64,000 nt of DNA, from the IMG/VR virus record IMGVR_UViG_3300045988_079665. One strand, given 5' to 3'. The notes below the pieces were generated by a model. The model saw only the letters and a program-made list of their open reading frames with translations. It had not been told where the DNA came from and did no database searches. This DNA comes from a virus. Position 1 is the first letter of the stretch; every line of letters starts with the position of its first letter. A program made the position numbers and the translations under genes. Below are positions 2,830 to 52,480 of this stretch, one piece after another.

Positions 2830-3368
2830 AATTTCCTTTTAATTTCCTTTCGATTTCTAATAAAATTTTATTAAAACAAGTCGCAATGTTCATGCGCATA
2901 TTGACTTGATATATAGGGTTATTTTGTCGCACTATTAACTACTTACAGGTACTCACTTCACCAAGCCCTATACTATTTGCGCGGAATAGGATTATCACCA
3001 CACTATAAGCACATTTTCCAGTTTTGCTCTTCGGATGGTACTAGATGAGATTCGACCAACAGCCAACCTTAGCAGTGACGCGCGTTATTTACTAAGGATT
3101 TTTAGAATTGCCACACTCTCTACAAATTCATGTTAAATTGAATTTACAGTTGCGCAACCATCTTAAAATCAAGAGTGTGGCGACGTTGCCTCATAGCATC
3201 AAGTGGTCAGCTATCAACTATTCAGCAACTAGCATTATAACCTATAAACTAGACTATCCGCAGTGACCAAATCTTGAGGACTGTCTTACAAAGCTAGGAT
3301 TTTCGGCTTTTCCACCAGACGGCTATCAAGTGTGCTTACAATGCTAGTAGAGGCATGATAGACGTTTT

Positions 3369-3441
3369 TGACCGTGGTAGGATTCGAACCTACATCTCAT
3401 CCGCTATGAACGGAGAGTATTACCAATTAGGAGACGCGGTC
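3369..3441 (-). tRNA. tRNA-like element, anticodon CAU (Met/Ile2 type), D-stem unpaired
   Basis: Canonical T-arm GTAGGTTCGAATCCTAC, 6/7 acceptor pairs, anticodon loop TTCATAG. The D-arm has the GG but no stem pairing; no CCA encoded. Confidence 0.55.
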
Positions 3442-3448
3442 ATATGGA

Positions 3449-5329: not shown

Positions 5330-5422
5330 TGGTACTGGCGCTCGGACTCGAACCGAGATTTTGCGGCAATCGACCGCTAAACTGTGTATAGGACAGCTGG
5401 CTTACCATTAACCGACACCAGC
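5330..5422 (-). tRNA. type-II (long variable arm) tRNA with unusual anticodon loop CCUAUAC (apparent anticodon UAU)
   Basis: All four arms pair: acceptor 7 bp, D-stem GGTT/AGCC, anticodon stem GCTGT/ACAGT, T-arm CTCGG-TTCGAGT-CCGAG. It has a 23-nt variable arm with its own stem, discriminator A and an encoded CCA. Confidence 0.8.
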
Positions 5423-6992: not shown

Positions 6993-7564
6993 TTGAACAA
7001 TTCCTCCATTTCTCTAGTATTGTATTTTCTATTCTTCACATATTCAACTCGACTTTTGAATTTGCCCCAATCTGCACTACGGATATTATCGTCAATCAAT
7101 TCACGAATAAAAATCTCATCCTTATATTTGCGCCGTTCGAGCCGTAAATCATGTAGCAACTTATATATCTTATATCCATCTCTTGCATTGTATGAATTGA
7201 ACTCAATAGCATGAAGCACATCTTGAATTTTATTCTCTACTTCTTGCAGTTTATATTCGACCCATGTCGCCCTTGCTACAAGCTGGTCATGCAGGTCACA
7301 GAACGCGCCAATTTGCGCCAATGCTAAATCATAATTGACCAAATTTGAATTGTTAAACTGGTCGAAATCGACGGGTTTAGATGGTGCATCAATCTGTTGC
7401 ACAAAATATCCAAGATTGCGCATTTGCTTTGGTAAATTAACAAGCGCATTATCGGCTTTGGTTTTATCATTGAATTGAAATGACTCGCTTAATTCAGTTG
7501 TTGGAATCCATTGCCCTATGGCATTATGCATGAGATAGTATTTATTGTTATAGAGTACATACAT
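6989..7564 (-). CDS. hypothetical protein (191 aa)
   Basis: Intact ORF, translationally coupled to its neighbours. Confidence 0.6.
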   Translation of the reverse strand: MYVLYNNKYYLMHNAIGQWIPTTELSESFQFNDKTKADNALVNLPKQMRNLGYFVQQIDAPSKPVDFDQFNNSNLVNYDLALAQIGAFCDLHDQLVARATWVEYKLQEVENKIQDVLHAIEFNSYNARDGYKIYKLLHDLRLERRKYKDEIFIRELIDDNIRSADWGKFKSRVEYVKNRKYNTREMEELFK

Positions 7565-7566
7565 GA

Positions 7567-7797
7567 TTATCGTTTCTTTCTTTTAGATTTACGACGTTCG
7601 GCTCGATTTGGAGGAAATGAGACACCATTTGGATATAGATAATCCTTCAATGCTAAAGTAAAATCGTAGAAGGATATATCGTATGGTAAATTTAATTTGT
7701 CACACCATCTGTTCCACCATTCATCGAATCCTATAGTCCATGTGGCTGTTTCGTCATCGCCGAACGATTCCAAATATTCAAAAATCCTATCGTTCAT
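7567..7797 (-). CDS. hypothetical protein (76 aa), basic C-terminus
   Basis: Intact ORF in the operon. Confidence 0.55.
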   Translation of the reverse strand: MNDRIFEYLESFGDDETATWTIGFDEWWNRWCDKLNLPYDISFYDFTLALKDYLYPNGVSFPPNRAERRKSKRKKR

Positions 7798-7966
7798 TTA
7801 GCACCTCATCCAATCCAACAAAATACGGACACTTCTTCGTATCTTCGCAAATGTGCTTATCTTCACCAACTTGACATACCCAACTATGAAATTCCATATT
7901 CCCTTCTTGACGGCAGTTGCGGCATTCATATGGATAATTAGGCATTTCATTTACTATAATTTTCAT
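7787..7966 (-). CDS. small Cys-rich protein (59 aa)
   Basis: Hand-translated MKIIVNEMPNYPYECRNCRQEGNMEFHSWVCQVGEDKHICEDTKKCPYFVGLDEVLNER. RBS AAAGGAAAG upstream; below the track length cutoff. Confidence 0.5.
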   Translation of the reverse strand: MKIIVNEMPNYPYECRNCRQEGNMEFHSWVCQVGEDKHICEDTKKCPYFVGLDEVLNER

Positions 7967-8018
7967 CTATATGTCTTTCCTTTAACTTTTATAAAATGTG
8001 AAAATCTGCGGTATTTGG

Positions 8019-8216
8019 TTAAGATACCCAATAAGCAATAGAGATTATACCAGATATAATAATTGCAATAATTGGTAGCATAATCAATCCAAGCCAATTT
8101 CCATTTTCAAGTAACGTCACACCAAAAGCTAGTGTCGCAAACGCAAGAGTGACTAAAATCATTACAAGAAAAATCCATAATGTTCGCTTCAAAAATCTAA
8201 TTATGTTATTCTTCAT
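8019..8216 (-). CDS. small membrane protein (65 aa, two hydrophobic helices)
   Basis: Hydrophobic segments WIFLVMILVTLAFATLAFGV and LIMLPIIAIIISGIISIAYW. Confidence 0.6.
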   Translation of the reverse strand: MKNNIIRFLKRTLWIFLVMILVTLAFATLAFGVTLLENGNWLGLIMLPIIAIIISGIISIAYWVS

Positions 8217-8530
8217 CTATATTTCTTTCCTTCTTCAATCAGCTTAGAAATTTCATCTGTGCATCTCAATACACGTTGTTTCCACATAAATTCACCCACA
8301 TCTCGTTTTCTAAAAAAGTCGTACTTGCCAATAGAATCAAACAATAACACGATGTCCTGTTCGTCAATATCCAGACATATTGATCTATTAAATTCATCAA
8401 ATTCAATTCCAATTCGATACGTCTTATCAATCATTTCGTTGGTTGGGTACATACAATATGTAATTCTTCCAGTTCGATTATGTAACTTGACATAATCTCC
8501 AGCATTAAATTGATACTTATTTGTATTCAT
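8213..8530 (-). CDS. hypothetical protein (105 aa)
   Basis: Intact ORF; 4-nt overlap with the downstream gene. Confidence 0.55.
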   Translation of the reverse strand: MNTNKYQFNAGDYVKLHNRTGRITYCMYPTNEMIDKTYRIGIEFDEFNRSICLDIDEQDIVLLFDSIGKYDFFRKRDVGEFMWKQRVLRCTDEISKLIEEGKKYR

Positions 8531-8573
8531 ATCTTAATCCTTTCCAATATACATAACATCATATTCAATATTG

Positions 8574-8963
8574 TCAATTGTGTGATTCAATTCTATATAT
8601 TCCTTTCTCACATTTAGAATACCAGAATGTCAATTCACCAATTTTCGAGCCTTCTTTAAGAAATCCAAATCCACCAATCACCCAATTGACATTAACTGCA
8701 CTAATTACATCCATTACAATTTTGATTTTGTTTGTAAAGCATTCTAGCATATCTGGTTCTGGATTACAATCTTCAAGATAATCAGCATATGCCCATATAT
8801 CAATATTACTATGAGTATGCAAAAAGAAATATTGAGGTGCATTCATTCTCAACGTAGAATCAACTAAGAATCTACCAATCTCAATGTCATATTCATCATA
8901 TACATATCCTACGCCAGAAATAGAAATGGGAACACCAGATGAAGCAGAAATTTCAACACTCAT
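8574..8963 (-). CDS. hypothetical protein (129 aa)
   Basis: Intact ORF; 4-nt overlap with the upstream gene. Confidence 0.55.
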   Translation of the reverse strand: MSVEISASSGVPISISGVGYVYDEYDIEIGRFLVDSTLRMNAPQYFFLHTHSNIDIWAYADYLEDCNPEPDMLECFTNKIKIVMDVISAVNVNWVIGGFGFLKEGSKIGELTFWYSKCEKGIYRIESHN

Positions 8964-9205
8964 ATATCAATACCTTCTTTCAAATTTCCCAATAGAATAC
9001 GCGATATTGTTTCTTTATCTCTATCTGAGCAATCGCCAAATTGCATTACGGAACACCATAAAACAGGACGTTTAATTCTCCAGTTATTGCGTTTTGAATA
9101 TATTACAACAAACTCAATCGGAATACGCTTATCCATTCTAACTTTGAATCCATTCCGTTCCACTTCTTTATCATCATGTTTCATATTAAAAATAAATTTG
9201 CCCAT
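8960..9205 (-). CDS. hypothetical protein (81 aa; possibly the 3' part of a TAA-interrupted 126-codon frame)
   Basis: The same reading frame is open back to an ATG at 9338..9340 that has a GGAGG RBS, except for one TAA at 9260..9262. Confidence 0.5.
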   Translation of the reverse strand: MGKFIFNMKHDDKEVERNGFKVRMDKRIPIEFVVIYSKRNNWRIKRPVLWCSVMQFGDCSDRDKETISRILLGNLKEGIDI

Positions 9206-32018: not shown

Positions 32019-32262
32019 TATTTGCCTATGAAGCGGCTACTATGTTGGTGTGTGGCTGTGGAGGTGCTATTAGGGTTGTGTGGTGAATATACTCCAAGTT
32101 CCAACTTAGGCTTAATTGAAAGCTGAAAATAAAAACACTCAAAAATATCAAACGAGCGGATAGGGAGGACAAGTAGCTCAATGAACTTTGGCATACGTTA
32201 ATGAAGTCCATAATCTAACCGCTCTAATATATAAACAATAAAACAAAGAAAGGAGGTTGAAG

Positions 32263-39592: not shown

Positions 39593-39859
39593 ATGAGTAG
39601 AACAGATAAGCAAGAAAAAATTCATGCTTTATATAAAGTCCTGTTGCTGTTTGAAGATTTGACCAGTCTTGAGCCGACAATTGAAGAAGCCGACTATACA
39701 GCATATTGTGAGCGGCTATCTGTACGATTTAGGGCGGTTGATGGTGAAATTGCTGATACATTGGCAGGATTAAGCAAAATGGGGCTTGAGCTTACTCATC
39801 CTATTATCCGTTCATGTGTATTGCGCATGACAAACAGAATTGAAAGGATGGGTGATTGA
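39593..39859 (+). CDS. hypothetical protein (88 aa)
   Basis: Intact ORF with a GAGGGGTGG RBS. Confidence 0.5.
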   Translation: MSRTDKQEKIHALYKVLLLFEDLTSLEPTIEEADYTAYCERLSVRFRAVDGEIADTLAGLSKMGLELTHPIIRSCVLRMTNRIERMGD

Positions 39860-39860
39860 T

Positions 39861-40571
39861 ATGGCGTATGATGAATTTATTCAGGACATATTAAATACTC
39901 GTGGTAGATTTGCTTGTGGCGATGAATATCATGAAAGACACCATATCATTCCTAAATGTCTTGGTGGCACTAACGACGAGGATAATCTTATAGATTTGTA
40001 CGCGAGAGAACATTATGAGGCACATAAACTCCTTTCTGATGAAAATCCTGGGAATACACCTTTGCAACATGCTTTTTTTATGATGTCGACGTGTATTTCT
40101 CAGAATAAAGGTAGATATAAATGCACCGCAGAAGAATATGAGATTGCTAAAAAGAGAGTTTCAGAATGTAAGTTTTCTGAGGAAACATTAAAAAAAATGT
40201 CTATTACCAGAAAGGGAAGAACTCTTTCTGAAGAACATAGAAAACATATGTCTGAGGCTCAAATTGGAAGAAAAGTTTCATTAGAAACTAGATTAAAGTT
40301 GAGTTTGGCACAAAAAGGAAAATCTCGTCCACATAAAGGACACATACCGTCTGATGAAACAAGGGCGATATGGTCTAAGCAGAGAAAGGGACGAGACGCA
40401 GGTGGTAAAAATCCAAATGCGAAAAAAGTTTTGTGCGATGGCGTACTATATGATTGGGCTGGAGAATGTGCTGATAAATTAGGGATTGCAAGAACAACTC
40501 TTAGAAGTTGGTTGAATGGACAACGTAAGATGCCAAAGCAGTGGGTAGATAGGGGGCTTTCATATGTATGA
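39861..40571 (+). CDS. HNH homing endonuclease with NUMOD3-like repeats
   Basis: HHIIPKCLGGTNDEDNLIDLYAREHYEAH (HNH) plus repeated S.E.....S.A..G motifs (SEETLKKMS, SEEHRKHMS, SLETRLKLS, SDETRAIWS). Confidence 0.8.
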   Translation: MAYDEFIQDILNTRGRFACGDEYHERHHIIPKCLGGTNDEDNLIDLYAREHYEAHKLLSDENPGNTPLQHAFFMMSTCISQNKGRYKCTAEEYEIAKKRVSECKFSEETLKKMSITRKGRTLSEEHRKHMSEAQIGRKVSLETRLKLSLAQKGKSRPHKGHIPSDETRAIWSKQRKGRDAGGKNPNAKKVLCDGVLYDWAGECADKLGIARTTLRSWLNGQRKMPKQWVDRGLSYV

Positions 40572-45151: not shown

Positions 45152-45670
45152 ATGATTATAGCAGGATTAGATGCTAGTACGTCTTCTACTGGATGGTCTA
45201 TATTTGATAATGGGAGGCTCATTGCATATGGCACAATTAAGCCAAAGGGCGATGATTGGCATGATAGAGTAATGGGACTTACTATGGAATTATCAAGCAT
45301 ATTGAGACAGTATAAGCCAACAATTCTCTATGCTGAGGAAGTGCCATTAAAAAAAGGCGCGTCAACCATAGAGAAATTGGGTGCAGTACAAGGCGTAATA
45401 TTAGCATTATGTGCTGGCTTCAAGATAAAGCCATGCTTCTTGATGCCAAGTAAATGGCGTGGCGACCTTAATCTCTTTGATGGCACAAGAGCTGGTCTAC
45501 AAAGGGATGTTCTGAAAAAAAAAGCCATAGAGATGGCGAATGAAGAATTTAGCCTCGATTTGGCATGGGTTGCCCCAAGTAGCAAAAAAAATGAGGATGA
45601 TTGCGCAGAAGGAATCCTCATAGCCTACTCACAAATAAAAAAAGGGAGTGTGATGAATGGCTGGAAGTAA
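45152..45670 (+). CDS. RuvC-like Holliday junction resolvase
   Basis: MIIAGLDASTSSTGWSIF (first catalytic Asp context), ILYAEEVPL (Glu) and a C-terminal acidic NEDDCAEGILIA. Confidence 0.7.
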   Translation: MIIAGLDASTSSTGWSIFDNGRLIAYGTIKPKGDDWHDRVMGLTMELSSILRQYKPTILYAEEVPLKKGASTIEKLGAVQGVILALCAGFKIKPCFLMPSKWRGDLNLFDGTRAGLQRDVLKKKAIEMANEEFSLDLAWVAPSSKKNEDDCAEGILIAYSQIKKGSVMNGWK

Positions 45671-46055
45671 CTCTCAGTACTCGATTCTGGTTGATGTTCA
45701 GCTACAAGAAGAGAGTATAAAGAAGCAACTTAAAGATATACAAAATAGCAAAGACACCAAGTTAAAGATTGGCGTTACAGCAGATGGAGCAGAACGAACC
45801 AAGACAGAGTTAGATGGTGTAACTCAATCTACTAAAAATCTTGATAATTCTACTAAAGATTTGATGTTTACATATCAACAATATCGTCAAGTCTTAGATA
45901 GTGTAATTAATATCACTGAAAAAATGTATCAGTCAGTGAAATCACTGGATGATGCGCAGACAGAACTAAAGAAGGTGTCTGATCTACAAGGCGCGGCACT
46001 TGATAATTATACTAAGAAATTATCTGAATCTGGAAAGACAGTAGCAAGAACCGGT
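45657..46055 (+). CDS. tail tape measure protein, exon 1 of 3
   Basis: The frame continues seamlessly into 46707 after removal of a group-I-like intron; the exon ends in U, paired to the intron guide GCCGG. Confidence 0.7.
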
Positions 46056-46401
46056 AAACCAAATCGGTCTGAGCCGGTATGTACAGATGGTAAATGTGCA
46101 TAAAGAACAGCTCCTAAACCCTTGAAAGCCTAAAGAGCCTTATCACTACAACATGAGGATTAGATATACCTGAGTGTGAATTATTCATTGTTAACAATGA
46201 ATTAGTGCGAAAGCAGAAAGACGATAAGGATGATTCCATGGTTGAAAGACCTAAAGAATCTGTTGCAAATAATGTATAATATTTGGGACAAAAGGGCAGA
46301 TTGGGCGCGAAGTCCTGATGAGGGATGTGTCAACAGAATATACAGAGCGACCCTCCAATAATATAGGGTGAAGAATTATTCGGGAAGGGATTGAAAACCC
46401 C

Positions 46402-46430
46402 TTGACAAATTATTTAAGATGTGATAGTAT
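46402..46430 (+). promoter_or_regulatory. promoter TTGACA-17-TAGTAT inside intron 1
   Basis: Consensus -35, 17-nt spacer and a good -10, followed by the hairpin gtagata/tatctac and an RBS. Confidence 0.6.
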
Positions 46431-46470
46431 GTAGATACTTAAATAATATCTACGAAAGGAAGTATTTATT

Positions 46471-46692
46471 ATGTATCTATCTATTGCGACATTTGTTCTT
46501 ATAGGCCCATTGATTGTCATTTGTGGTTGGGTAATTATCGTTAAGGATATTATTCATTGGATGGAAAAAGACAATGAAGAGGTAGACAAACAGCTGAAAG
46601 AAAAATATAATGTGCGCAATGAAACGCCAGAAGAGGAAGAGGCGCGTGTTGAAGAATACGGGCTTGATGACCAATGGAGTATTCTTAAATAA
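46471..46692 (+). CDS. intron-borne small membrane protein (73 aa) with acidic tail
   Basis: N-terminal TM IATFVLIGPLIVICGWVIIV; GAAAGGAAG RBS; no endonuclease motifs. Confidence 0.55.
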   Translation: MYLSIATFVLIGPLIVICGWVIIVKDIIHWMEKDNEEVDKQLKEKYNVRNETPEEEEARVEEYGLDDQWSILK

Positions 46693-46706
46693 TTTGTAAA
46701 TAACTG

Positions 46707-47258
46707 TCAGAAATGGTTTCTGCGGCTACTATGTTTAGGAAGTCCGGCTTTAATGATTCTGATGCCGTGATACTAGCAAAGGTAGCCGCACAATATCAAA
46801 ACGTAGCGGATACTGCGGTGTCAGCAGAAGATGCCGTCGCATCTATTGTTTCTCAGATTCGCGCATTTGGCAAGGATGCAAGCTTTGCCACTACGGTAAT
46901 CGACGCATATAACGAAGTAGCAAATCGTTTTAGTGTAGGTACTAATGACCTATCTAATGCCATGGAAATTGCATCTAGCGGTATGGCTACTTATGGCAAT
47001 GAATTCTCTGAAATCATTGGGTTAGTTACCGCAGGTACAGAAATCATGTCAGGACGCAGCTCACAGGTTGCTAGAGGCTTATCCACAATTGCATCTCGTA
47101 TTGTAAAAAATCAAGATGCTCTTGCAGAATATGGTATCACAGTAAAAAATGTAGATGGTAGTTTAAAAAGCACATATGACGTGCTTGCTGAATTGAAGCC
47201 AAAATGGGATTCAATGACAGATGCTCAAAGAACTGCTTTAGGCGATACTATAGCTGGT
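46707..47258 (+). CDS. tail tape measure protein, exon 2 of 3
   Basis: Contains a typical TMP core (AQYQNVADT...AYNEVANRFS...LVTAGTEIMSGRSSQVARGL). Confidence 0.75.
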
Positions 47259-48826
47259 TAAATTGATTTAGCCAGAGACAGACTTAATTGACGGGAAAGA
47301 ACAGGGTCGGACTTGTTATCTGTGCATTCGCATGGATGCCTAAGAGCCTTATACACCAACTTATTATGGCGACATAATAGGGGTCTAAACTAATCATTTA
47401 GAGTATGGTAAAAGAGATGAGGATATATGGTCAATCCGCAACGAAGCATCTATTGGAATATAGATGAACGCTCAACGAACATCGAAAGCAACCAATAAGT
47501 ATTGGTAAATGTAACTAACGATAGTTAGAATAAGCCGTTTAACGGACGAAGCGAGTAGAGTAAGCGATAGTGCTAGTCGCTGAAAGAGTCTGCGTATTAC
47601 AGTATTGTAATATAAAATATGTTCTATTCCTATGCGAAAGGCATAGGCAATGATATTATCAAAATGTGATTGATGGAGGAAGGTGAAAACATATCAAGAC
47701 TAACAAAGGAAAAAGTTGATGATATATTGATGTCAAGAGGGCTAAAGCTAAAAGACGATGTATATATTTCAAGTAAATCTAAAATTCACTGTGTAGACGA
47801 ATATGGATATGAGTACAGTTTAACATTAGATAATATACAAGATAAGAGAACGGTTAGTTTTGCTAGATATTCTGTACGAAATCCATATACATTGCACAAT
47901 TTGAATCTATTTATAAAAGAAAATGAGCTTGAATGCGAATTGCTTTCTACAGAGAATCCTAAAAGTGAAAAAGACAAGTTAGAGTTTAGATGCAAATGTG
48001 GCAAACATTATTTTCTATGTTATAATCATCTATTGATGAATCAAAAAGATACTTGCAATGAATGTGGAAGAGCAAGGGAAAGTAGATATACTCCGGAATA
48101 TATAAATAGCATTATATCTGTTTTAGGCTACTCTTTGATACCAAATACTCCTGCGTCATACCGTTCTGTTTGTGTGCAAGATAATGATGGATACAAATAT
48201 AAGGCAACGTTACCAAATTTGATGAATGGTGCAACGCCTATCAAATTTCATAAACTCAATCCATATACAATAGAGAACATGAAGTTGTTTCTAGCTTCTA
48301 ATAAGTATCCAGTTAAACTTTTAGAGCCAGATGATAAAGTGATAGAAGTACGAACAGATTATCTTAAATTTTCTTGTTGCGTATGTGGTTCTGAGTATAT
48401 GGCGACTTGGGGACAAGTGGTAGAAACAGATAGATTTAGATGCGAAAAATGTGTTAAGAAACAATCAAATCTATCATATTATGTTGAACAATATTTAATA
48501 GAAAAAGATGTTGAATATATTAGAGAATTTAGATTTGATGATTGCCGTTACAAAAGAGCATTACCGTTTGATTTTTATTTGCCATTACATAATTATGTTA
48601 TTGAGGTAAATGGCGATCAGCACTATTATGAGAATCCAATGTTCCAACAATCTCTTGACGAAAGACAGAAAATAGATAAAATTAAAGAAAATTATTGTAA
48701 AGAAAATAACATAGGATTTTTAGCAATGCCACGATGGTGGATTCAAAACAAATATGAAGTAAAAAGATATAAACAAGAAATAGATAATATCGTTGGGCGA
48801 GATTAGCACCCTCGTTTAATAAAAAG
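47259..48826 (+). mobile_element. group I intron 2 in the tape measure gene (carries a homing endonuclease ORF)
   Basis: P1: exon ctggU with intron Gccag (47271..47275). P10: intron attgattt (47262..47269) with exon-3 aaatcaat (48829..48836). The last intron base is G (48826). Confidence 0.7.
47673..48806 (+). CDS. intron-encoded putative homing endonuclease (Vsr/DUF559-like PD-(D/E)xK C-terminal domain, CxxC repeats)
   Basis: C-terminal FDFYLPLHNYVIEVNGDQHY fits the restriction-endonuclease-like fold; repeated CKCG/CNECG/CCVCG/CEKC zinc-ribbon modules. Confidence 0.6.
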   Translation: MEEGENISRLTKEKVDDILMSRGLKLKDDVYISSKSKIHCVDEYGYEYSLTLDNIQDKRTVSFARYSVRNPYTLHNLNLFIKENELECELLSTENPKSEKDKLEFRCKCGKHYFLCYNHLLMNQKDTCNECGRARESRYTPEYINSIISVLGYSLIPNTPASYRSVCVQDNDGYKYKATLPNLMNGATPIKFHKLNPYTIENMKLFLASNKYPVKLLEPDDKVIEVRTDYLKFSCCVCGSEYMATWGQVVETDRFRCEKCVKKQSNLSYYVEQYLIEKDVEYIREFRFDDCRYKRALPFDFYLPLHNYVIEVNGDQHYYENPMFQQSLDERQKIDKIKENYCKENNIGFLAMPRWWIQNKYEVKRYKQEIDNIVGRD

Positions 48827-51800
48827 ACAAATCAATATAAAGTCCTTGCTGCTGTTATGCAGAACTTTGAACATGCTACAGATGCAACAAAAGTAGCGCT
48901 CAACTCTGCGGGCTCTGCTGCACATGAAAATGAACGTTATATGGAGAGCCTCGAAGCAAAAGTTCAAGCTGTAAAGGCTGAATTTGAAGATTTCTCTAAT
49001 CGTGTATTGTCAAAAGAATTAGTATCTGGATTCCTTGATGCCGGACAGGCAGTTCTACAATTTGTGAATACAGATTTTGGCGCATCATTGACAAGAATAG
49101 CCGGTGTTGGTACTGCCGTTGCTAGCACACTTGGCTTGATTGGCACAATGGGCGCTAAGTTGGTACTTGTAGCAAAACAGCTGCAAAATGTAGGCGGAGC
49201 AACTGGGTTATTAGGATTGCTAACAACACCAAAAACAGTGCTTGCCATTGGTGGCGTTGTGGCTGCACTTACAGCCATGTTCGAGATAATGAAAGCCATT
49301 GATGGGATTGATGACAAGAAGCTCACATCTCTCAGTGATACATTGCAAACAACAAATGATAAAATAGCTGAAATGTCAGCTGATGGCTCTGAATATGATA
49401 CACTAATTAAAAAGGCGGGCAATCTTACAGAACAAGAAGAGGCGCGACTTGGTATTTTACAAGCACAGTTAGATACTCTAAAGAAGCAATCAGTTGAAGA
49501 AAATAAGGCATATTATACCGAGTGGCAAAAACAACAGCAAAAAGGTGACAGCAGATGGGAATATGGTGAAGGTGATGGTACAGGTACTACATTAACATTT
49601 GAGGGACAGACATATACTTTCTATACAACGACTAAAGCCGAAGAAGCGACACGGAATTTAAGCGCAGCGATTGTTGATTTACAACAAAAATATGACAATG
49701 GAATGTCACAGCAAGAATATATTGCTGGGTTACAAAATATAATTGATGGTGCTCAAGAAACATATGACAATATTCTTGCGTTAAAAGACCTGTATGCAGA
49801 GACCGGGGATGAACAATATAAGCTCACACAACAGCAAGAGATATTTGTTGACATCATTGAGCATCAAAAAGAAGTTGTAGCTGGTCTTGGCGCAGAATAT
49901 GCACAAAATTCTGAGGATATTGGACAATTTGGCGATGCAGTAGAAGAATCAGCCTCTAAGCTAGATACATATGTTTCCGCTCTTGATGAATATCGTGGTG
50001 CAAATGAAGATGCGGCCAGTTCGTCTGAGATTCTTGTCAATTCCCTATTTGACGCAAATGGACAATTGACAGAAGCCGCCAAACAAGCGTTAACCACAGA
50101 TGGTGCTATGGCAAGCATGGCGCAATCATTTATTCAGGCACAGCAAGCACAAGCACAGGCAGATTTTAGCGCATTGATATTGGCTATTAGTAAAGTTGGA
50201 GAAGCGGCTATGGTTACAACCAGCCAATTAGCAACTATGATGGCTATGGCTGGCGTTGATATTTCTGGCGGAGAAACAAGTGCAGTAGCAAGCCTGAGGC
50301 ATCAATATTATCTTGAAACCGGTAAAGGTAGTACATCTGGGTCTAAAATGGTGGGCGGCAAAGTTGAAATGCAGAACACCAAAGAATTTACAGATTGGGC
50401 AGCTTCATATATCCAAAAACAAGCACAAGAAAAATTTGAGAAGCAACAAAAAGAGTATGCTGATAAGCTCAAGCAGATAGGTACATTTGTCCCATCTGGT
50501 GGAGGAGGTGGCGGTGGTTCATCCAGAACCAAGCAAGACCAAGAAGAAGTTAAAGCTCAAACCATCAATACCATTGAAGAACTGCGTGAATATTTAACTG
50601 ATGAATCAACTCGCCTCAAGTTAATTGACCCAGATATTAGTAAATCTGATTTACAGTCAACTCTATCAGAAGTAGCTACTATATATCAATCCTATCAGGA
50701 TTATCTATCTCAGCTCAAGCAACAGGGATTTGATGAAACAAGTGAACAGTATCAACAAGCCGAGGCTGAATTTGCTCAATTTGTTGAAGTATTAAAAACG
50801 CTGTTCACACAACTTGTATCTGGTGGCAAATACAGCGTAGATGAGCTTGTTGGGTATATTGAACAAAATTGTGGCAATCTATCAACCACCATTAGCGGGA
50901 TGCTAAGTGGATTGAAAACAGAGGTTCAATCGACAATAGCATCTATATCTGCTTCTACGCATCAAGCATTTGCTTCTGGCGACGCTAACAGTATTATTGG
51001 CTCGATTGAAAATGCTTGGGATATGATTAGCTCTATGGGAAGCTCTATAGATGAGTCTTATAGCTCTGCCGTAGATGAGATTATAGCAAAAGCTGAGCAA
51101 GAATCAGAGGTTGCCCAAGAAGTAGCGGATAAATACGAATGGCAAAACAAGCTACTTGAGGATAAGATAGCTCTTGAAGAAAAGTTAGAGGCACTTGAAA
51201 AAGCAAAACAGCGGCGCATGCTTGTATATAGCGAAGGTCGCTTCCAATATATGCAAGATGTTGATAAAATATCTTCTGCACAAGCTGAATATCAAGAAAC
51301 ATATAGAGGTGTTGAGCAAAGCCAGATTCAAGGACTTTTGGATAAGATAGGCGAAGAATCATCCGAGTTCTTTGCTGACTATTTTACAAAAGCTAAAGAG
51401 AAAGGATACGGCGACCTTCCAAGTAGTAGCATACAGGCATATCCATCGGTGTTGAAAAAGCACCTAATGGATTATCTTGAAAAGCAAACAAAAGGAACAG
51501 TTCTTGAAGGCGCGGACGAAAGCCAACTAGAAAAGATTTTTGGTTCAGCTATGAAACCGGGCGAAGCATATGCACAACTTGCAGCCGCTGAAGCCGCAAG
51601 ACAAGCTGCCGCAGATGAAAGAGCTGAACGAAAAGCAGAGTTAAAAAAGCAAATTCAGGAAGAAAACGTAAAATATTACGGAGTTCAAACTGACTTTGGT
51701 GAGAAGATATTAAACGCACAAACCCAAGCAGAGGTTGAATATTGGACTAAGCTTAGAGATACCAAGCAACAGATGATTAAGGAATATAGAGAGGCATATG

Positions 51801-52480
51801 GTGATGAAGCCGCCTCAAAATATTTCGGAACAGATGTTAGTAAGCAAGAAGAATGGAAATCTAATAAAGACTTATATAAAGAGGCTTACGAGTCTGGTAG
51901 TGAAGCTTGGAGAACTAAAAAAGCCGAGTTCGAAAGGCAACATTATTTTGACGAAAAAGATAAATATACTGAAAAGAATCCAGACCTCACAGTAGCACAG
52001 TATAATGCTGCGACCGCTGTTGATATGGAAGGATTAGGCGAGCAGAGATTATATGACAGAATATTTAGAGGCTCTATCACTAAGTCTGAGATTCAAGACC
52101 TATATAACAAGTCAAAATCTGACATTTCTAAGGGCTACTTGCTTAATCTAGCATCTGAGATGCATAAAGCTGGTTATCAGGGATATGCTAGAGGAACTAC
52201 AAAAGCTGGCGGTGGCTTATCTCTAGTTGGTGAAAACGGCCCAGAACTAAGAGTGCTGAATCAGGGCGATGGTATATTACCTAACAGCATCACAGATAAT
52301 CTATGGCGATGGGGCTCTATGACTCCTAGTGATATGCTGGCTTCTTTGGCTCAAAAAGCACAGAATTGGGCGCAAACGCTTAATATTAGTAATGTCACAT
52401 TGCCAAATGTACGTGACGCTCAATCGTTCGTAACAGGACTTAGAGAATTGGCGCAACAATATGTGACAAGACGTAGTTAA
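48827..52480 (+). CDS. tail tape measure protein, exon 3 of 3
   Basis: The junction gives ...GDTIAG|TNQYKVLAAVMQNF..., a typical TMP continuation. Long coiled-coil, Gly-run and hydrophobic segments; the spliced product is 1534 aa. Confidence 0.8.
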   Translation, partial: TNQYKVLAAVMQNFEHATDATKVALNSAGSAAHENERYMESLEAKVQAVKAEFEDFSNRVLSKELVSGFLDAGQAVLQFVNTDFGASLTRIAGVGTAVASTLGLIGTMGAKLVLVAKQLQNVGGATGLLGLLTTPKTVLAIGGVVAALTAMFEIMKAIDGIDDKKLTSLSDTLQTTNDKIAEMSADGSEYDTLIKKAGNLTEQEEARLGILQAQLDTLKKQSVEENKAYYTEWQKQQQKGDSRWEYGEGDGTGTTLTFEGQTYTFYTTTKAEEATRNLSAAIVDLQQKYDNGMSQQEYIAGLQNIIDGAQETYDNILALKDLYAETGDEQYKLTQQQEIFVDIIEHQKEVVAGLGAEYAQNSEDIGQFGDAVEESASKLDTYVSALDEYRGANEDAASSSEILVNSLFDANGQLTEAAKQALTTDGAMASMAQSFIQAQQAQAQADFSALILAISKVGEAAMVTTSQLATMMAMAGVDISGGETSAVASLRHQYYLETGKGSTSGSKMVGGKVEMQNTKEFTDWAASYIQKQAQEKFEKQQKEYADKLKQIGTFVPSGGGGGGGSSRTKQDQEEVKAQTINTIEELREYLTDESTRLKLIDPDISKSDLQSTLSEVATIYQSYQDYLSQLKQQGFDETSEQYQQAEAEFAQFVEVLKTLFTQLVSGGKYSVDELVGYIEQNCGNLSTTISGMLSGLKTEVQSTIASISASTHQAFASGDANSIIGSIENAWDMISSMGSSIDESYSSAVDEIIAKAEQESEVAQEVADKYEWQNKLLEDKIALEEKLEALEKAKQRRMLVYSEGRFQYMQDVDKISSAQAEYQETYRGVEQSQIQGLLDKIGEESSEFFADYFTKAKEKGYGDLPSSSIQAYPSVLKKHLMDYLEKQTKGTVLEGADESQLEKIFGSAMKPGEAYAQLAAAEAARQAAADERAERKAELKKQIQEENVKYYGVQTDFGEKILNAQTQAEVEYWTKLRDTKQQMIKEYREAYGDEAASKYFGTDVSKQEEWKSNKDLYKEAYESGSEAWRTKKAEFERQHYFDEKDKYTEKNPDLTVAQYNAATAVDMEGLGEQRLYDRIFRGSITKSEIQDLYNKSKSDISKGYLLNLASEMHKAGYQGYARGTTKAGGGLSLVGENGPELRVLNQGDGILPNSITDNLWRWGSMTPSDMLASLAQKAQNWAQTLNISNVTLPNVRDAQSFVTGLRELAQQYVTRRS

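What the first reader, a model, noticed from the sequence alone, without database searches (positions are those of the whole stretch)
45657..52480. Tape measure gene interrupted by two group I introns with readable P1/P10 pairings
Three in-frame pieces (45657..46055, 46707..47258, 48827..52480) join into one 1534-aa tape measure protein with seamless junctions (...TVARTG|SEMVSAATMF... and ...GDTIAG|TNQYKVLAAVMQNF...). Both interruptions obey group I rules. The 5' exon ends in U, paired with G of an internal guide (ccggU/Gccgg; ctggU/Gccag). The guide's 5' flank pairs with the start of the next exon (tctga/tcaga; attgattt/aaatcaat). Each intron ends in G. The two introns share a gcctaa(a)gagccttat block. 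Both ORFs sit at the extreme 3' end of their introns, as in the T4 sunY/nrdD arrangement.
Basis: partly seen in the sequence, partly recalled or inferred. Interest (0 to 1): 0.65.

Follow-up and report, generated by a model that had tools for sequence, protein, structure and literature searches.

The report
Two group I introns split tape-measure gene
The tail tape-measure gene of this uncultured gut phage really is interrupted by two self-splicing-type (group I) introns, a known kind of interruption; standard RNA databases miss both, and one carries a small membrane-protein gene instead of the usual homing endonuclease.

Summary
The pieces 45657-46055, 46707-47258 and 48827-52480 join in frame into a 1534-aa tape measure protein. 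One TIGR01760 domain match runs across both junctions. Uninterrupted homologues exist, including 97-98% identical phage genomes that lack intron 2 exactly at the predicted junction.

Both inserts fold in the canonical group I order (P1 to P10, with the P3/P7 pseudoknot). Compensatory base changes in relatives support this: 27 of 65 pairs for intron 1 and 23 of 102 for intron 2, far above the controls. Rfam RF00028 misses both at its threshold.

Intron 2 is IA-like and carries a Vsr/EDxHD-type homing endonuclease. It occurs in three allelic states: absent, without its ORF (454 nt), and with the ORF.

Intron 1 has no endonuclease. Its terminal loop holds a fast-diverging small membrane-protein gene under purifying selection (pN/pS about 0.13). 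A promoter-like site of the type seen upstream in the window precedes that gene.

In related phages the same 260-codon region has at least seven intron sites. Group I introns in tape-measure genes are already published, so this is a new member of a known kind. The cargo of intron 1 is the unusual part. Splicing itself was not tested.

The parts
45657..46055 (+). Tape measure exon 1 (133 codons). Its last 6 nt, ACCGGU, form the 5' strand of P1.
   Evidence: A tblastn match of 100% ends at residue 133.
46056..46706 (+). Intron 1 (651 nt, 'site A'), group I, no endonuclease. Helices: P10 guide 46068-72; IGS 46073-78; P2 46079-85/46095-101; P3 46110-13/46345-48; P4 46119-23/46292-96; P5a 46138-44/46223-29; P6 46304-08/46327-31; P7 46334,46336-40/46377-82; P8 46350-54/46365-69; P9 46383-46402; terminal G at 46706.
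   Evidence: In 26 distinct relatives 97.6% of cells are paired. 27 of 65 pairs show changes on both sides, against 11.6 +/- 1.8 in shuffles and at most 6 when partners are slid. RF00028 gives no hit.
46402..46430 (+). Promoter-like site inside intron 1: TTGACA, 17 nt, TAGTAT, with TG at -15/-14. It is followed by a Shine-Dalgarno-like AAAGGAAG at 46455-62.
   Evidence: It fits the same consensus as at least 11 other sites at about 4.6-28 kb of the window. The arrangement is present in all 26 aligned relatives, and in L030 it is re-created at a shifted position. Function is inferred.
46471..46692 (+). Intron-1 cargo gene: a 73-aa small protein with an N-terminal transmembrane helix and an acidic tail ending ...EEYGLDDQWSILK.
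   Evidence: At least one ORF of 40 aa or more lies in the terminal loop of all 37 distinct site-A introns. 19 of the 37 have one with a Shine-Dalgarno-like sequence. A shared C-terminal (K/E)YD(N/D)DWG-type motif recurs in most variants. pN/pS is about 0.13. There is no Pfam or PHROG family match. Only close homologues exist among 5.8 billion proteins.
46684..46696 (+). 3' strand of the long-range helix that pairs with 46406-46418. It closes the loop holding the promoter-like site and the ORF, and it overlaps the ORF stop codon.
   Evidence: A 13-bp perfect duplex, with compensatory variants in relatives (coordinates).
46707..47258 (+). Tape measure exon 2 (184 codons), the core of the PhageMin_Tail / TP901 domain.
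   Evidence: There is no Shine-Dalgarno sequence before its first ATG at 46713.
47259..48826 (+). Intron 2 (1568 nt, 'site E'), group I, IA-like. Helices: P10 guide 47262-69; IGS 47271-75; P3 47279-84/47587-92; P4 47288-94/47436-41; extended P5 domain 47295-47435; P6 47447-53/47460-66; P7 47477-82/47619-24; four hairpins between P7 and P3' at 47491-47581; P8 47595-601/47606-12; P9 47629-47; long-range helix 47648-60/48783-95; terminal hairpin 48797-48814; terminal G at 48826.
   Evidence: 98.9% of cells are paired. 23 of 102 pairs show changes on both sides, against 3.9 +/- 1.7 in shuffles and at most 3 when slid. RF00028 gives 22.9 bits on the core alone. nhmmer links the core to RF00028-positive introns. 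A 454-nt version without the ORF exists in L198.
47670..48806 (+). Intron-2 ORF (378 aa from TTG 47670, or 377 aa from ATG 47673): a homing endonuclease with N-terminal zinc-ribbon repeats and a C-terminal Vsr/EDxHD-type nuclease domain.
   Evidence: PHROG 559, 9084 and 7140, annotated HNH endonuclease, homing endonuclease and intron encoded nuclease. D301, E312, H318, D336 and K339 are invariant. AlphaFold2 pLDDT is 90.5. Foldseek hits Vsr (1cw0, 1vsr) and the I-Bth0305I catalytic domain 3r3p_B, with target TM-score 0.80 and rmsd 2.9 A.
48827..52480 (+). Tape measure exon 3 (1217 codons plus the stop). Its first bases, ACAAAUCAAU, carry the P10 target.
   Evidence: There is no Shine-Dalgarno sequence before its first ATG at 48857.

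Best explanation
The late transcript of the tape measure gene carries two group I introns.

Inferred mechanism, following established group I chemistry:
1. Each intron folds into a catalytic core (P3-P9), with the end of the 5' exon held on an internal guide sequence (P1).
2. A free guanosine attacks after U46055 or U47258.
3. The freed exon end then attacks after the terminal G (46706 or 48826), with the next exon aligned by P10.
4. The ligated message of 4605 nt encodes one 1534-aa tape measure protein.

Shown here: the frame-exact junctions, the P1 and P10 pairings, the full helix set with covariation, and intron-less alleles.

Intron 2 is a mobile element. It carries a Vsr/EDxHD-type homing endonuclease in the loop of a terminal helix. 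It is found absent, without its ORF, or with its ORF in near-identical phages.

Intron 1 has no endonuclease and is present in nearly all relatives sampled from this phage clade. Its terminal loop holds a small membrane-protein gene with its own host-type promoter-like site. That gene can therefore probably be expressed independently of the late transcript (inferred).
For: Gene continuity:
- One TIGR01760 match spans both junctions, and Pfam PhageMin_Tail covers residues 120-317.
- Contiguous homologues: P0010, P0013, P0017 and Enterocloster phages such as CB473P3.
- L197, L199 and L200 read ...GCGGGT|ACTAATCAG... with no insert.

Structure:
- Covariation counts.
- In intron 1, P7 has the C-G pair, bulge, then G-C layout of a G-binding site. 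C[A]G.../...CG switches to U[C]G.../...CA in relatives.
- Intron 2 has P/Q/R/S-like elements: AAUUGACGGGAAAG, AAUCCGCAAC, CUCAACGAACAU, AAAAUAUGUUC.
- P1 changes compensate: U-A becomes G-C in L029, and U.G becomes G-C in L030.
- Long-range helices close the ORF loops.

Homology: the intron-2 core matches RF00028-positive introns of relatives.

Mobility:
- Three allelic states occur at site E.
- Nine synonymous differences lie at +2..+25 of exon 3 between the intron-plus and intron-minus alleles, and none in the next 275 nt.

No Shine-Dalgarno sequence or start codon sits at the starts of exons 2 and 3.
Against: - Rfam RF00028 does not reach its gathering score (50 bits) on either intron. Intron 2 scores 22.9 bits only when its core is searched alone, and the 3' half of that alignment is misplaced. 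Intron 1 gives no hit at E<=10.
- P3 and P7 never vary, and P4 varies at one pair on one side only, in the intron-2 alignments (6 and 8 sequences). They therefore rest on sequence resemblance rather than covariation.
- In intron 1, P3 is only 4 bp and no clear P5 partner was found.
- Three relatives have C or G instead of U at the site-A splice site, which is unusual for group I.
- There are no RNA data, so splicing is inferred.
Confidence: 0.9

Rival explanations
1. Genes in pieces. The inserts are selfish cassettes that are never spliced. The tape measure would be made as three polypeptides that assemble, as in the Aeh1 nrdA gene split by mobE (recalled from memory).
For: Gene callers in public data report the pieces as separate ORFs with these same boundaries (P0012 and others). 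Exons 2 and 3 have in-frame ATGs 2 and 10 codons after the junctions.
Against: Neither of those ATGs has a Shine-Dalgarno sequence, whereas the intron ORF does. About 400 nt of non-coding sequence in each insert is conserved, with compensatory base-pair changes in the group I order. A cassette would not need that. The P1 and P10 pairings fall exactly at frame-restoring positions. An ORF-less 454-nt insert persists in L198.
Confidence: 0.03
2. Intron 1 is derived from a group I intron but is not an autonomous ribozyme. It would need a phage or host protein, or it is a diverged subclass whose chemistry differs in detail.
For: There is no RF00028 signal at all. P3 is short (4 bp), the P5 partner is unclear, and there are no P7.1/P7.2 helices, unlike intron 2. 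Relatives have C-G or G-C instead of U.G at the splice site.
Against: The helix order, the junction lengths, the bulged P7, the terminal G and P10 are all canonical and covary. The intron sits in an essential late gene in nearly all relatives sampled, so removal must be efficient.
Confidence: 0.07
3. A decaying gene in a defective phage. The tape measure gene would be a pseudogene disrupted by insertions.
For: Nothing beyond the interruption itself.
Against: All three pieces stay open and in frame across dozens of contigs of 80-100 kb. The exons are conserved at the protein level.
Confidence: 0.01

Closest known systems
Group I introns in the tape measure gene of Bacillus cereus-group prophages (TMP-IVS1, IVS2, IVS3; Tourasse and Kolsto 2008, PMC2504315)
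   Same: Several group I introns sit at different sites of one tape measure gene. Related introns are adapted to different sites through P1 and P10. Both endonuclease-bearing and endonuclease-free versions occur. Presence is patchy among related phages.
   Different: Those introns were classed IA1/IA2 and lie at three sites. Here the clade has at least seven sites within about 260 codons. The two window introns fall below the RF00028 threshold. Intron 1 carries a non-endonuclease gene. Whether the insertion sites correspond to the Bacillus sites was not tested.
Phage T4 nrdD (sunY) intron layout
   Same: The catalytic core lies entirely 5' of the ORF. The 3' splice site is far downstream and is brought back by pairing of the 3' tail. 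The T4 details are recalled from memory (Michel et al. 1992).
   Different: There is no detectable sequence relationship. The ORFs are of different kinds. Here the closing helix overlaps the end of the ORF.
I-Bth0305I, the EDxHD homing endonuclease encoded in a group I intron of Bacillus thuringiensis phage 0305phi8-36 (PDB 3R3P)
   Same: The C-terminal nuclease domain of the intron-2 ORF superposes on 3r3p_B (target TM-score 0.80, rmsd 2.9 A) and on Vsr. A conserved D...E..G..H...D..K pattern is present. Both are encoded in an intron.
   Different: Sequence identity is only 19%. Sequence searches of the PDB do not find it. The N-terminal part is made of zinc-ribbon repeats of the DUF4379 type. 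Cleavage activity and target are unknown.
Unannotated intron in cultured Enterocloster phage CB457P1 (OP172753.1)
   Same: It has a site-E type intron core, 75.7% identical over 85% of the query, at the same place in the tape measure gene.
   Different: It carries a 157-aa ORF instead of the 378-aa one. The record calls all the pieces 'hypothetical protein'. Sister phages (CB457P2, CB473P1-3, PMBT24) have an uninterrupted gene.

Membership tests
Group I intron | The 5' exon ends in U, which pairs with G of an internal guide sequence (P1). | tested here: met
   ACCGGU/GCCGGU and CUGGU/GCCAG. P1 shows compensatory changes in relatives. Three relatives at site A have C-G or G-C instead of U.G.
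Group I intron | The last intron nucleotide is G, and P10 forms between the 5' flank of the guide and the 3' exon. | tested here: met
   All 21 site-A and 12 site-E introns end in G. P10 is 5 bp and 8 bp. P1 plus P10 arise in 8 and 17 of 200,000 shuffles.
Group I intron | Core helices in the order P3-P4-P5-P4'-P6-P7-P3'-P8-P7'-P9, with the P3/P7 pseudoknot. | tested here: met
   Intron 1: 97.6% paired, with double changes in P2, P3, P5a, P6a, P7 and P8. Intron 2: 98.9% paired, with double changes in P1, the P5 domain, P6, the P7.x hairpins and P8. Its P3 and P7 are invariant, and P4 varies at one pair on one side only.
Group I intron | G-binding P7 and the conserved P/Q/R/S core sequences. | tested here: met
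   Intron 2 has AAUUGACGGGAAAG, AAUCCGCAAC, CUCAACGAACAU and AAAAUAUGUUC, which RF00028 aligns to P4, P6 and the R element. Intron 1 has C[A]GAAUA/UAUUCG, with covariation of the flanking pair and the bulge. Resemblance only; binding was not tested.
Group I intron | Rfam RF00028 score at or above the gathering threshold (50 bits). | tested here: not met
   There is no hit in the whole window or in 45900-49000 at E<=10. Intron 2 core alone scores 22.9 bits, E = 8.7e-4. Intron 1 core gives nothing. Other introns in the same gene of relatives score 60-99 bits.
Group I intron | Guanosine-dependent self-splicing. | not testable with these tools
   This needs in vitro transcription with GTP, or RT-PCR.
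Subgroup IA | Extra helices (P7.1/P7.2) between P7 and the 3' strand of P3. | tested here: inconclusive
   Intron 2 has four covarying hairpins there (47491-47581). Intron 1 has only ACA between P7 and P3'. So the feature is met for intron 2 and not for intron 1. The finer IA1/IA2 assignment was not tested.
EDxHD / Vsr-like homing endonucleases (I-Bth0305I family) | Vsr-type nuclease fold with a conserved acidic/His catalytic set, encoded in a mobile intron. | tested here: met
   Foldseek hits 1cw0, 1vsr and 3r3p_B, the last with target TM-score 0.80; no Foldseek E-value is at or below 0.001. D301, E312, H318, D336 and K339 are invariant. Sources name homologues 'very-short-patch-repair endonuclease'. 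There is no Pfam hit for the window protein itself. Nuclease activity was not tested.
Homing (mobile) intron | Presence/absence polymorphism at one exact site among close relatives, with altered flanking exon sequence. | tested here: met
   At site E the states are empty (L197, L199, L200), a 454-nt intron without the ORF (L198), and the intron with its ORF (window). Nine synonymous differences lie within +2..+25. For intron 1 no close intron-less relative was found; only relatives at 52-66% identity lack it.

The most novel reading that the evidence does not exclude
Intron 1 is a fixed group I intron without an endonuclease. Its terminal loop acts as a cargo bay for fast-diverging small membrane-protein genes, one to three per intron, that mostly share a C-terminal KYDNDWG-type motif. 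They would be driven by a host-type promoter of the kind seen upstream in the window. This amounts to an accessory gene, perhaps for superinfection exclusion or anti-defence, hidden inside an intron of a late structural gene and removed without a scar by the ribozyme. The same module family, which RF00028 mostly misses, has colonised at least seven sites of one tape measure domain.
Probability: 0.45. Interest if true: 0.55.

Novelty: new member of a known kind. Interest (0 to 1): 0.42.

Why it matters
**Annotation.** Standard tools (RF00028 at its gathering score, and gene callers) miss both introns. Public records therefore list the tape measure gene of this abundant gut phage clade as three to six unrelated 'hypothetical proteins'. 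This includes the cultured Enterocloster phage CB457P1. It distorts protein clustering and tail-length inference.

**Biology.**
- The clade offers an unusually dense natural series of group I intron sites in one domain.
- All three stages of the intron/endonuclease life cycle occur in near-identical genomes.
- One intron has non-endonuclease cargo with its own promoter-like site, which is uncommon in phages.
- A cultured relative makes the splicing directly testable.

Tried and rejected
**Structure models of intron 1 that were dropped**
- My first P3 guess (ACAGAU/AUCUGU) failed because the partner is not conserved in relatives. The 5' segment is instead the covarying hairpin P2.
- A P/Q-like reading (AAUUAGUGCGAAAG with UUGGGCGCGAAG as P4) was dropped. 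GUGCGAAAGCA is a covarying GAAA-loop hairpin, and the double change in the window (C to U at 46112, G to A at 46346) supports P3 = GCUC/GAGC.
- The local hairpin CCUUAU/AUGAGG was replaced by the long-range P5a, CCUUAUC/GAUAAGG, which covaries in four lineages.

**Searches that gave nothing useful**
- The 14-base pattern scan returned mostly chance matches; filtering left only the same clade.
- Megablast of the locus against GenBank phages found no match.
- Blastn of the intron-1 core against phages found no match.
- PDB sequence and profile searches with the intron-2 ORF gave only zinc-ribbon noise.
- The genome-contig scan found one 20-kb MAG contig labelled Bacteroidales. That gives no evidence of lysogeny and no reliable host.
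- Group II intron, intein and translational bypass were considered and rejected. The inserts are full of stop codons and contain no domain V or reverse transcriptase, and no Rfam family other than RF00028 matches them at a meaningful score.

Full report
**1. The observation**

The three pieces (45657-46055, 46707-47258, 48827-52480) are each a multiple of three. They join into 1534 codons with no stop. Alone, exon 2 matches Pfam PhageMin_Tail from profile position 17 onward. The joined protein matches from position 2. NCBIfam TIGR01760 (tape_meas_TP901) matches residues 91-374 in one stretch across both junctions.

Shuffling the first 45 nt of each insert reproduces P1 plus P10 in 8 and 17 of 200,000 trials.

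**2. Uninterrupted homologues**

Among 199 database relatives of the joined domain, P0010, P0013 and P0017 read straight through both junctions (...ARTGSEMVEAA......TIAG(T/Q/I)NQYKVLAAV...). P0023 and P0028 cross junction 1 and stop at junction 2. P0001-P0004 start after junction 1 and cross junction 2. P0012 is exon 2 alone.

The closest cultured phages are about 100-kb Enterocloster bolteae phages. Their tape measure gene matches residues 1-398 in one piece at 35-37% identity.

The most direct evidence comes from contigs L197, L199 and L200. They are 97-98% identical to the window around the gene and have no insert at junction 2...GATACTATAGCGGGT|ACTAATCAGTAC... L198 has a 454-nt insert there that equals the window's intron 2 without its ORF. 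Between the intron-plus and intron-minus alleles there are nine differences, eight of them synonymous, at +2 to +25 of exon 3. There are none in the next 275 nt. This is the usual mark of homing (co-conversion, or target-site divergence).

**3. What the inserts are**

*Rfam.* Rfam finds no group I intron in the window at its gathering score, and none at E<=10 in 45900-49000. Searched alone, the core of intron 2 scores 22.9 bits on RF00028 (E = 8.7e-4). P1, P4, P6 and the R element are aligned correctly and the 3' part is misplaced. Intron 1 gives nothing.

*Relatives.* I collected relatives from IMG/VR and from public assemblies. In this phage clade the tape measure domain is interrupted after residues 104, 133, 204, 238, 251, 317 and about 360, with up to four or more introns per genome. 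The introns at 104, 204, 238 and 251 score 60-99 bits on RF00028. Those at 133 (the window's intron 1) and 317 (the window's intron 2) never reach the threshold.

*Link to validated introns.* A profile HMM of the intron-2 core matches the RF00028-positive introns at sites 204 and 238 (E from 1e-17 to 1e-7). In the reverse direction, those introns hit window 47334-47640 (E about 1e-5 to 1e-6).

**4. Structure of intron 2**

The helices are P1, P3 (CAGACU/AGUCUG), P4 (UUG[A]CGG/CCGCAA), a 140-nt P5 domain, P6, P7 (GAACAU/AUGUUC), four hairpins between P7 and P3' (the IA hallmark), P8 and P9.

- On six distinct sequences 98.9% of cells are paired.
- 23 of 102 pairs change on both sides, against 3.9 +/- 1.7 in shuffles and at most 3 when the partners are slid.
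- P3 and P7 never vary, and P4 varies at one pair on one side only, even after adding the more distant L201 intron. These three rest on resemblance to the consensus.

**5. Structure of intron 1**

Two of my first guesses were wrong and were corrected by covariation (see Tried and rejected). The supported model is:

- P1
- P2 (AUGUACA/UGUGCAU)
- P3 (GCUC/GAGC)
- P4 (CCCUU/AAGGG)
- a large P5 domain with P5a (CCUUAUC/GAUAAGG) and two GAAA-loop hairpins
- P6 and P6a
- P7 (C[A]GAAUA/UAUUCG)
- P8 (ACCCU/AGGGU)
- P9

On 26 distinct sequences 97.6% of cells are paired. 27 of 65 pairs change on both sides, against 11.6 +/- 1.8 in shuffles and at most 6 when slid. P7 keeps the layout of a G-binding site. 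The closing C-G pair with a bulged A switches to U-A with a bulged C in 20 sequences. There are no P7.1/P7.2 helices.

It is shared with the RF00028-positive site-238 intron (CCCUUAGAGCCUUAUC).

**6. The ORF loops**

In both introns a long-range helix closes off the ORF: 46406-18 with 46684-96 (13 bp) and 47648-60 with 48783-95 (13 bp, one G.U). Compensatory variants occur in relatives. The ORF-less L198 intron keeps this helix as a plain hairpin. The 3' strands overlap the ends of the ORFs, so translation could interfere with folding. That is an inference, and it parallels T4 introns as I recall them.

**7. The intron-2 ORF**

- It matches PHROG families annotated HNH endonuclease, homing endonuclease and intron encoded nuclease (E = 6e-41, 2e-22, 1e-15).
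- Sources name its homologues 'very-short-patch-repair endonuclease' or 'restriction enzyme', and many carry DUF4379 zinc ribbons.
- D301, E312, H318, D336 and K339 are invariant.
- The AlphaFold2 model (pLDDT 90.5) matches Vsr (1cw0, 1vsr) and the I-Bth0305I catalytic domain (3r3p_B, target TM-score 0.80, rmsd 2.9 A). The Foldseek E-values are weak, about 7e-3.

I read it as a Vsr/EDxHD-type homing endonuclease.

**8. The intron-1 ORF**

It encodes a 73-aa protein with one transmembrane helix. It has no family match and only close homologues.

Across 37 distinct site-A introns (601-1066 nt) the loop always holds at least one ORF of 40 aa or more. 19 of the 37 have one preceded by a Shine-Dalgarno-like sequence, and some introns hold two or three ORFs. 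The products are very divergent small hydrophobic proteins, most of which share a C-terminal motif (KYDNDWGYIR, EWGLDDDWRWGKL, YDDWGFIE). Among close variants pN/pS is about 0.13, so it is a real gene.

It is preceded by TTGACA, 17 nt, TAGTAT with an upstream TG (46402-30), and by a Shine-Dalgarno-like sequence. The window has at least 11 other sites of the form cTTGACAaat, N13-15, TGnTAtAAT, all between 4.6 and 28 kb. The arrangement is kept in all 26 aligned relatives. In L030, where the P9 strand differs, a new TTGACA with correct spacing to TATAAT is present. Promoter function, and any role for the protein, are inferences.

**9. Comparison with what is known**

Group I introns in phage structural genes are well documented. 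Three intron sites in the tape measure gene of Bacillus cereus-group prophages were described in 2008, including related introns re-targeted through P1 and P10, and versions without an endonuclease (PMC2504315). Capsid and tail gene introns are known in Cluster J mycobacteriophages (PMC3706429).

The finding is therefore a new member of a known kind. The new aspects are:
- both introns fall below the RF00028 gathering score;
- the clade has at least seven sites in one domain;
- intron 1 carries non-endonuclease cargo;
- the cultured Enterocloster phage CB457P1 has a site-E type intron (75.7% identical) that is not annotated.

I found no paper on this clade's introns.

**10. Verdict**

Confidence that both inserts are group I introns removed from the tape measure mRNA is about 0.9 (higher for intron 2 than for intron 1). 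Splicing itself remains untested.

Noticed in passing
window 4666, 5549, 5790, 6570, 9401, 11076, 21271, 21412 (- strand); 21437, 22134, 28350 (+ strand): A family of near-identical promoter-like sites of the form cTTGACAaat, N13-15, TGnTATAAT lies on both strands of the 4.6-28 kb region. This is probably the early-gene region. The only other copy in the window is inside intron 1.
   Followed up: partly
window 39840-40571 (+): A free-standing endonuclease gene (Pfam HNH, NUMOD3 and the I-TevI DNA-binding domain) sits between two tail-module genes. It is present in L199 and L200 but absent from the otherwise near-identical L197 and L198, so it is a second mobile element polymorphism.
   Followed up: partly
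relatives: L018 2476-2761, L026 1896-2187 (site 104); L016 4066-4322 (site 204); L029 7067-7401 (site 238); L019 6346-6628 (site 251); L201 about 7560-9128 and L203 from 7072 (site about 360): The same 260-codon tape measure domain has at least seven intron sites across the clade, with four or more introns in some genomes (for example L026, L029, L018). L029 has a 39-nt mini-exon between two introns.
   Followed up: partly
L030 3588-3615; L010 and L024 around 5257 and 5285: At the site-A 5' splice site, L030 has G paired with C (both sides changed) and L010 and L024 have C paired with G. The near-universal pair in group I introns is U.G. This supports P1 but is unusual for group I chemistry.
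   Followed up: no
L201 2821-2938; L011 1367-1483: The P5 module of the site-A intron matches sequence upstream of the tape measure gene in relatives (E = 2e-10 and 9e-7). In L201 it falls in an uncalled gap just before the tail-tube gene. This suggests further introns of this class in other structural genes. RF00028 found nothing in L011 at its gathering score.
   Followed up: no
L204 (OP172753.1 25265-30963): In the cultured Enterocloster phage CB457P1 the tape measure gene is split by a site-E type intron with a 157-aa ORF. All pieces are annotated 'hypothetical protein'. Sister phages have an intact gene.
   Followed up: partly
window 45152-45670 (+): A RuvC-like resolvase gene (Pfam PF02075, E = 2e-6) lies directly upstream of the tape measure gene and overlaps its start, inside the tail module. 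It is conserved in relatives. The tail module resembles that of SPbeta (YomU, YomW, YomX and YonB Pfam families in relatives).
   Followed up: no
window 5330-5422 (-) and 3368-3442 (-); window 32023-32143 (+): There are two tRNA genes: tRNA-Met (CAU), and tRNA-Ile (UAU), 93 nt long with about 20 extra nt in the variable region. There is also a match to the Rfam 'drum' RNA at 45.0 bits, just above its 43-bit threshold.
   Followed up: no
window 46686-46689: The window's copy of the small intron-1 protein ends ...DDQWSILK. Close relatives have ...DD(D/Q)WG(I/M)LK, so the conserved glycine of the C-terminal motif is replaced by serine here.
   Followed up: no
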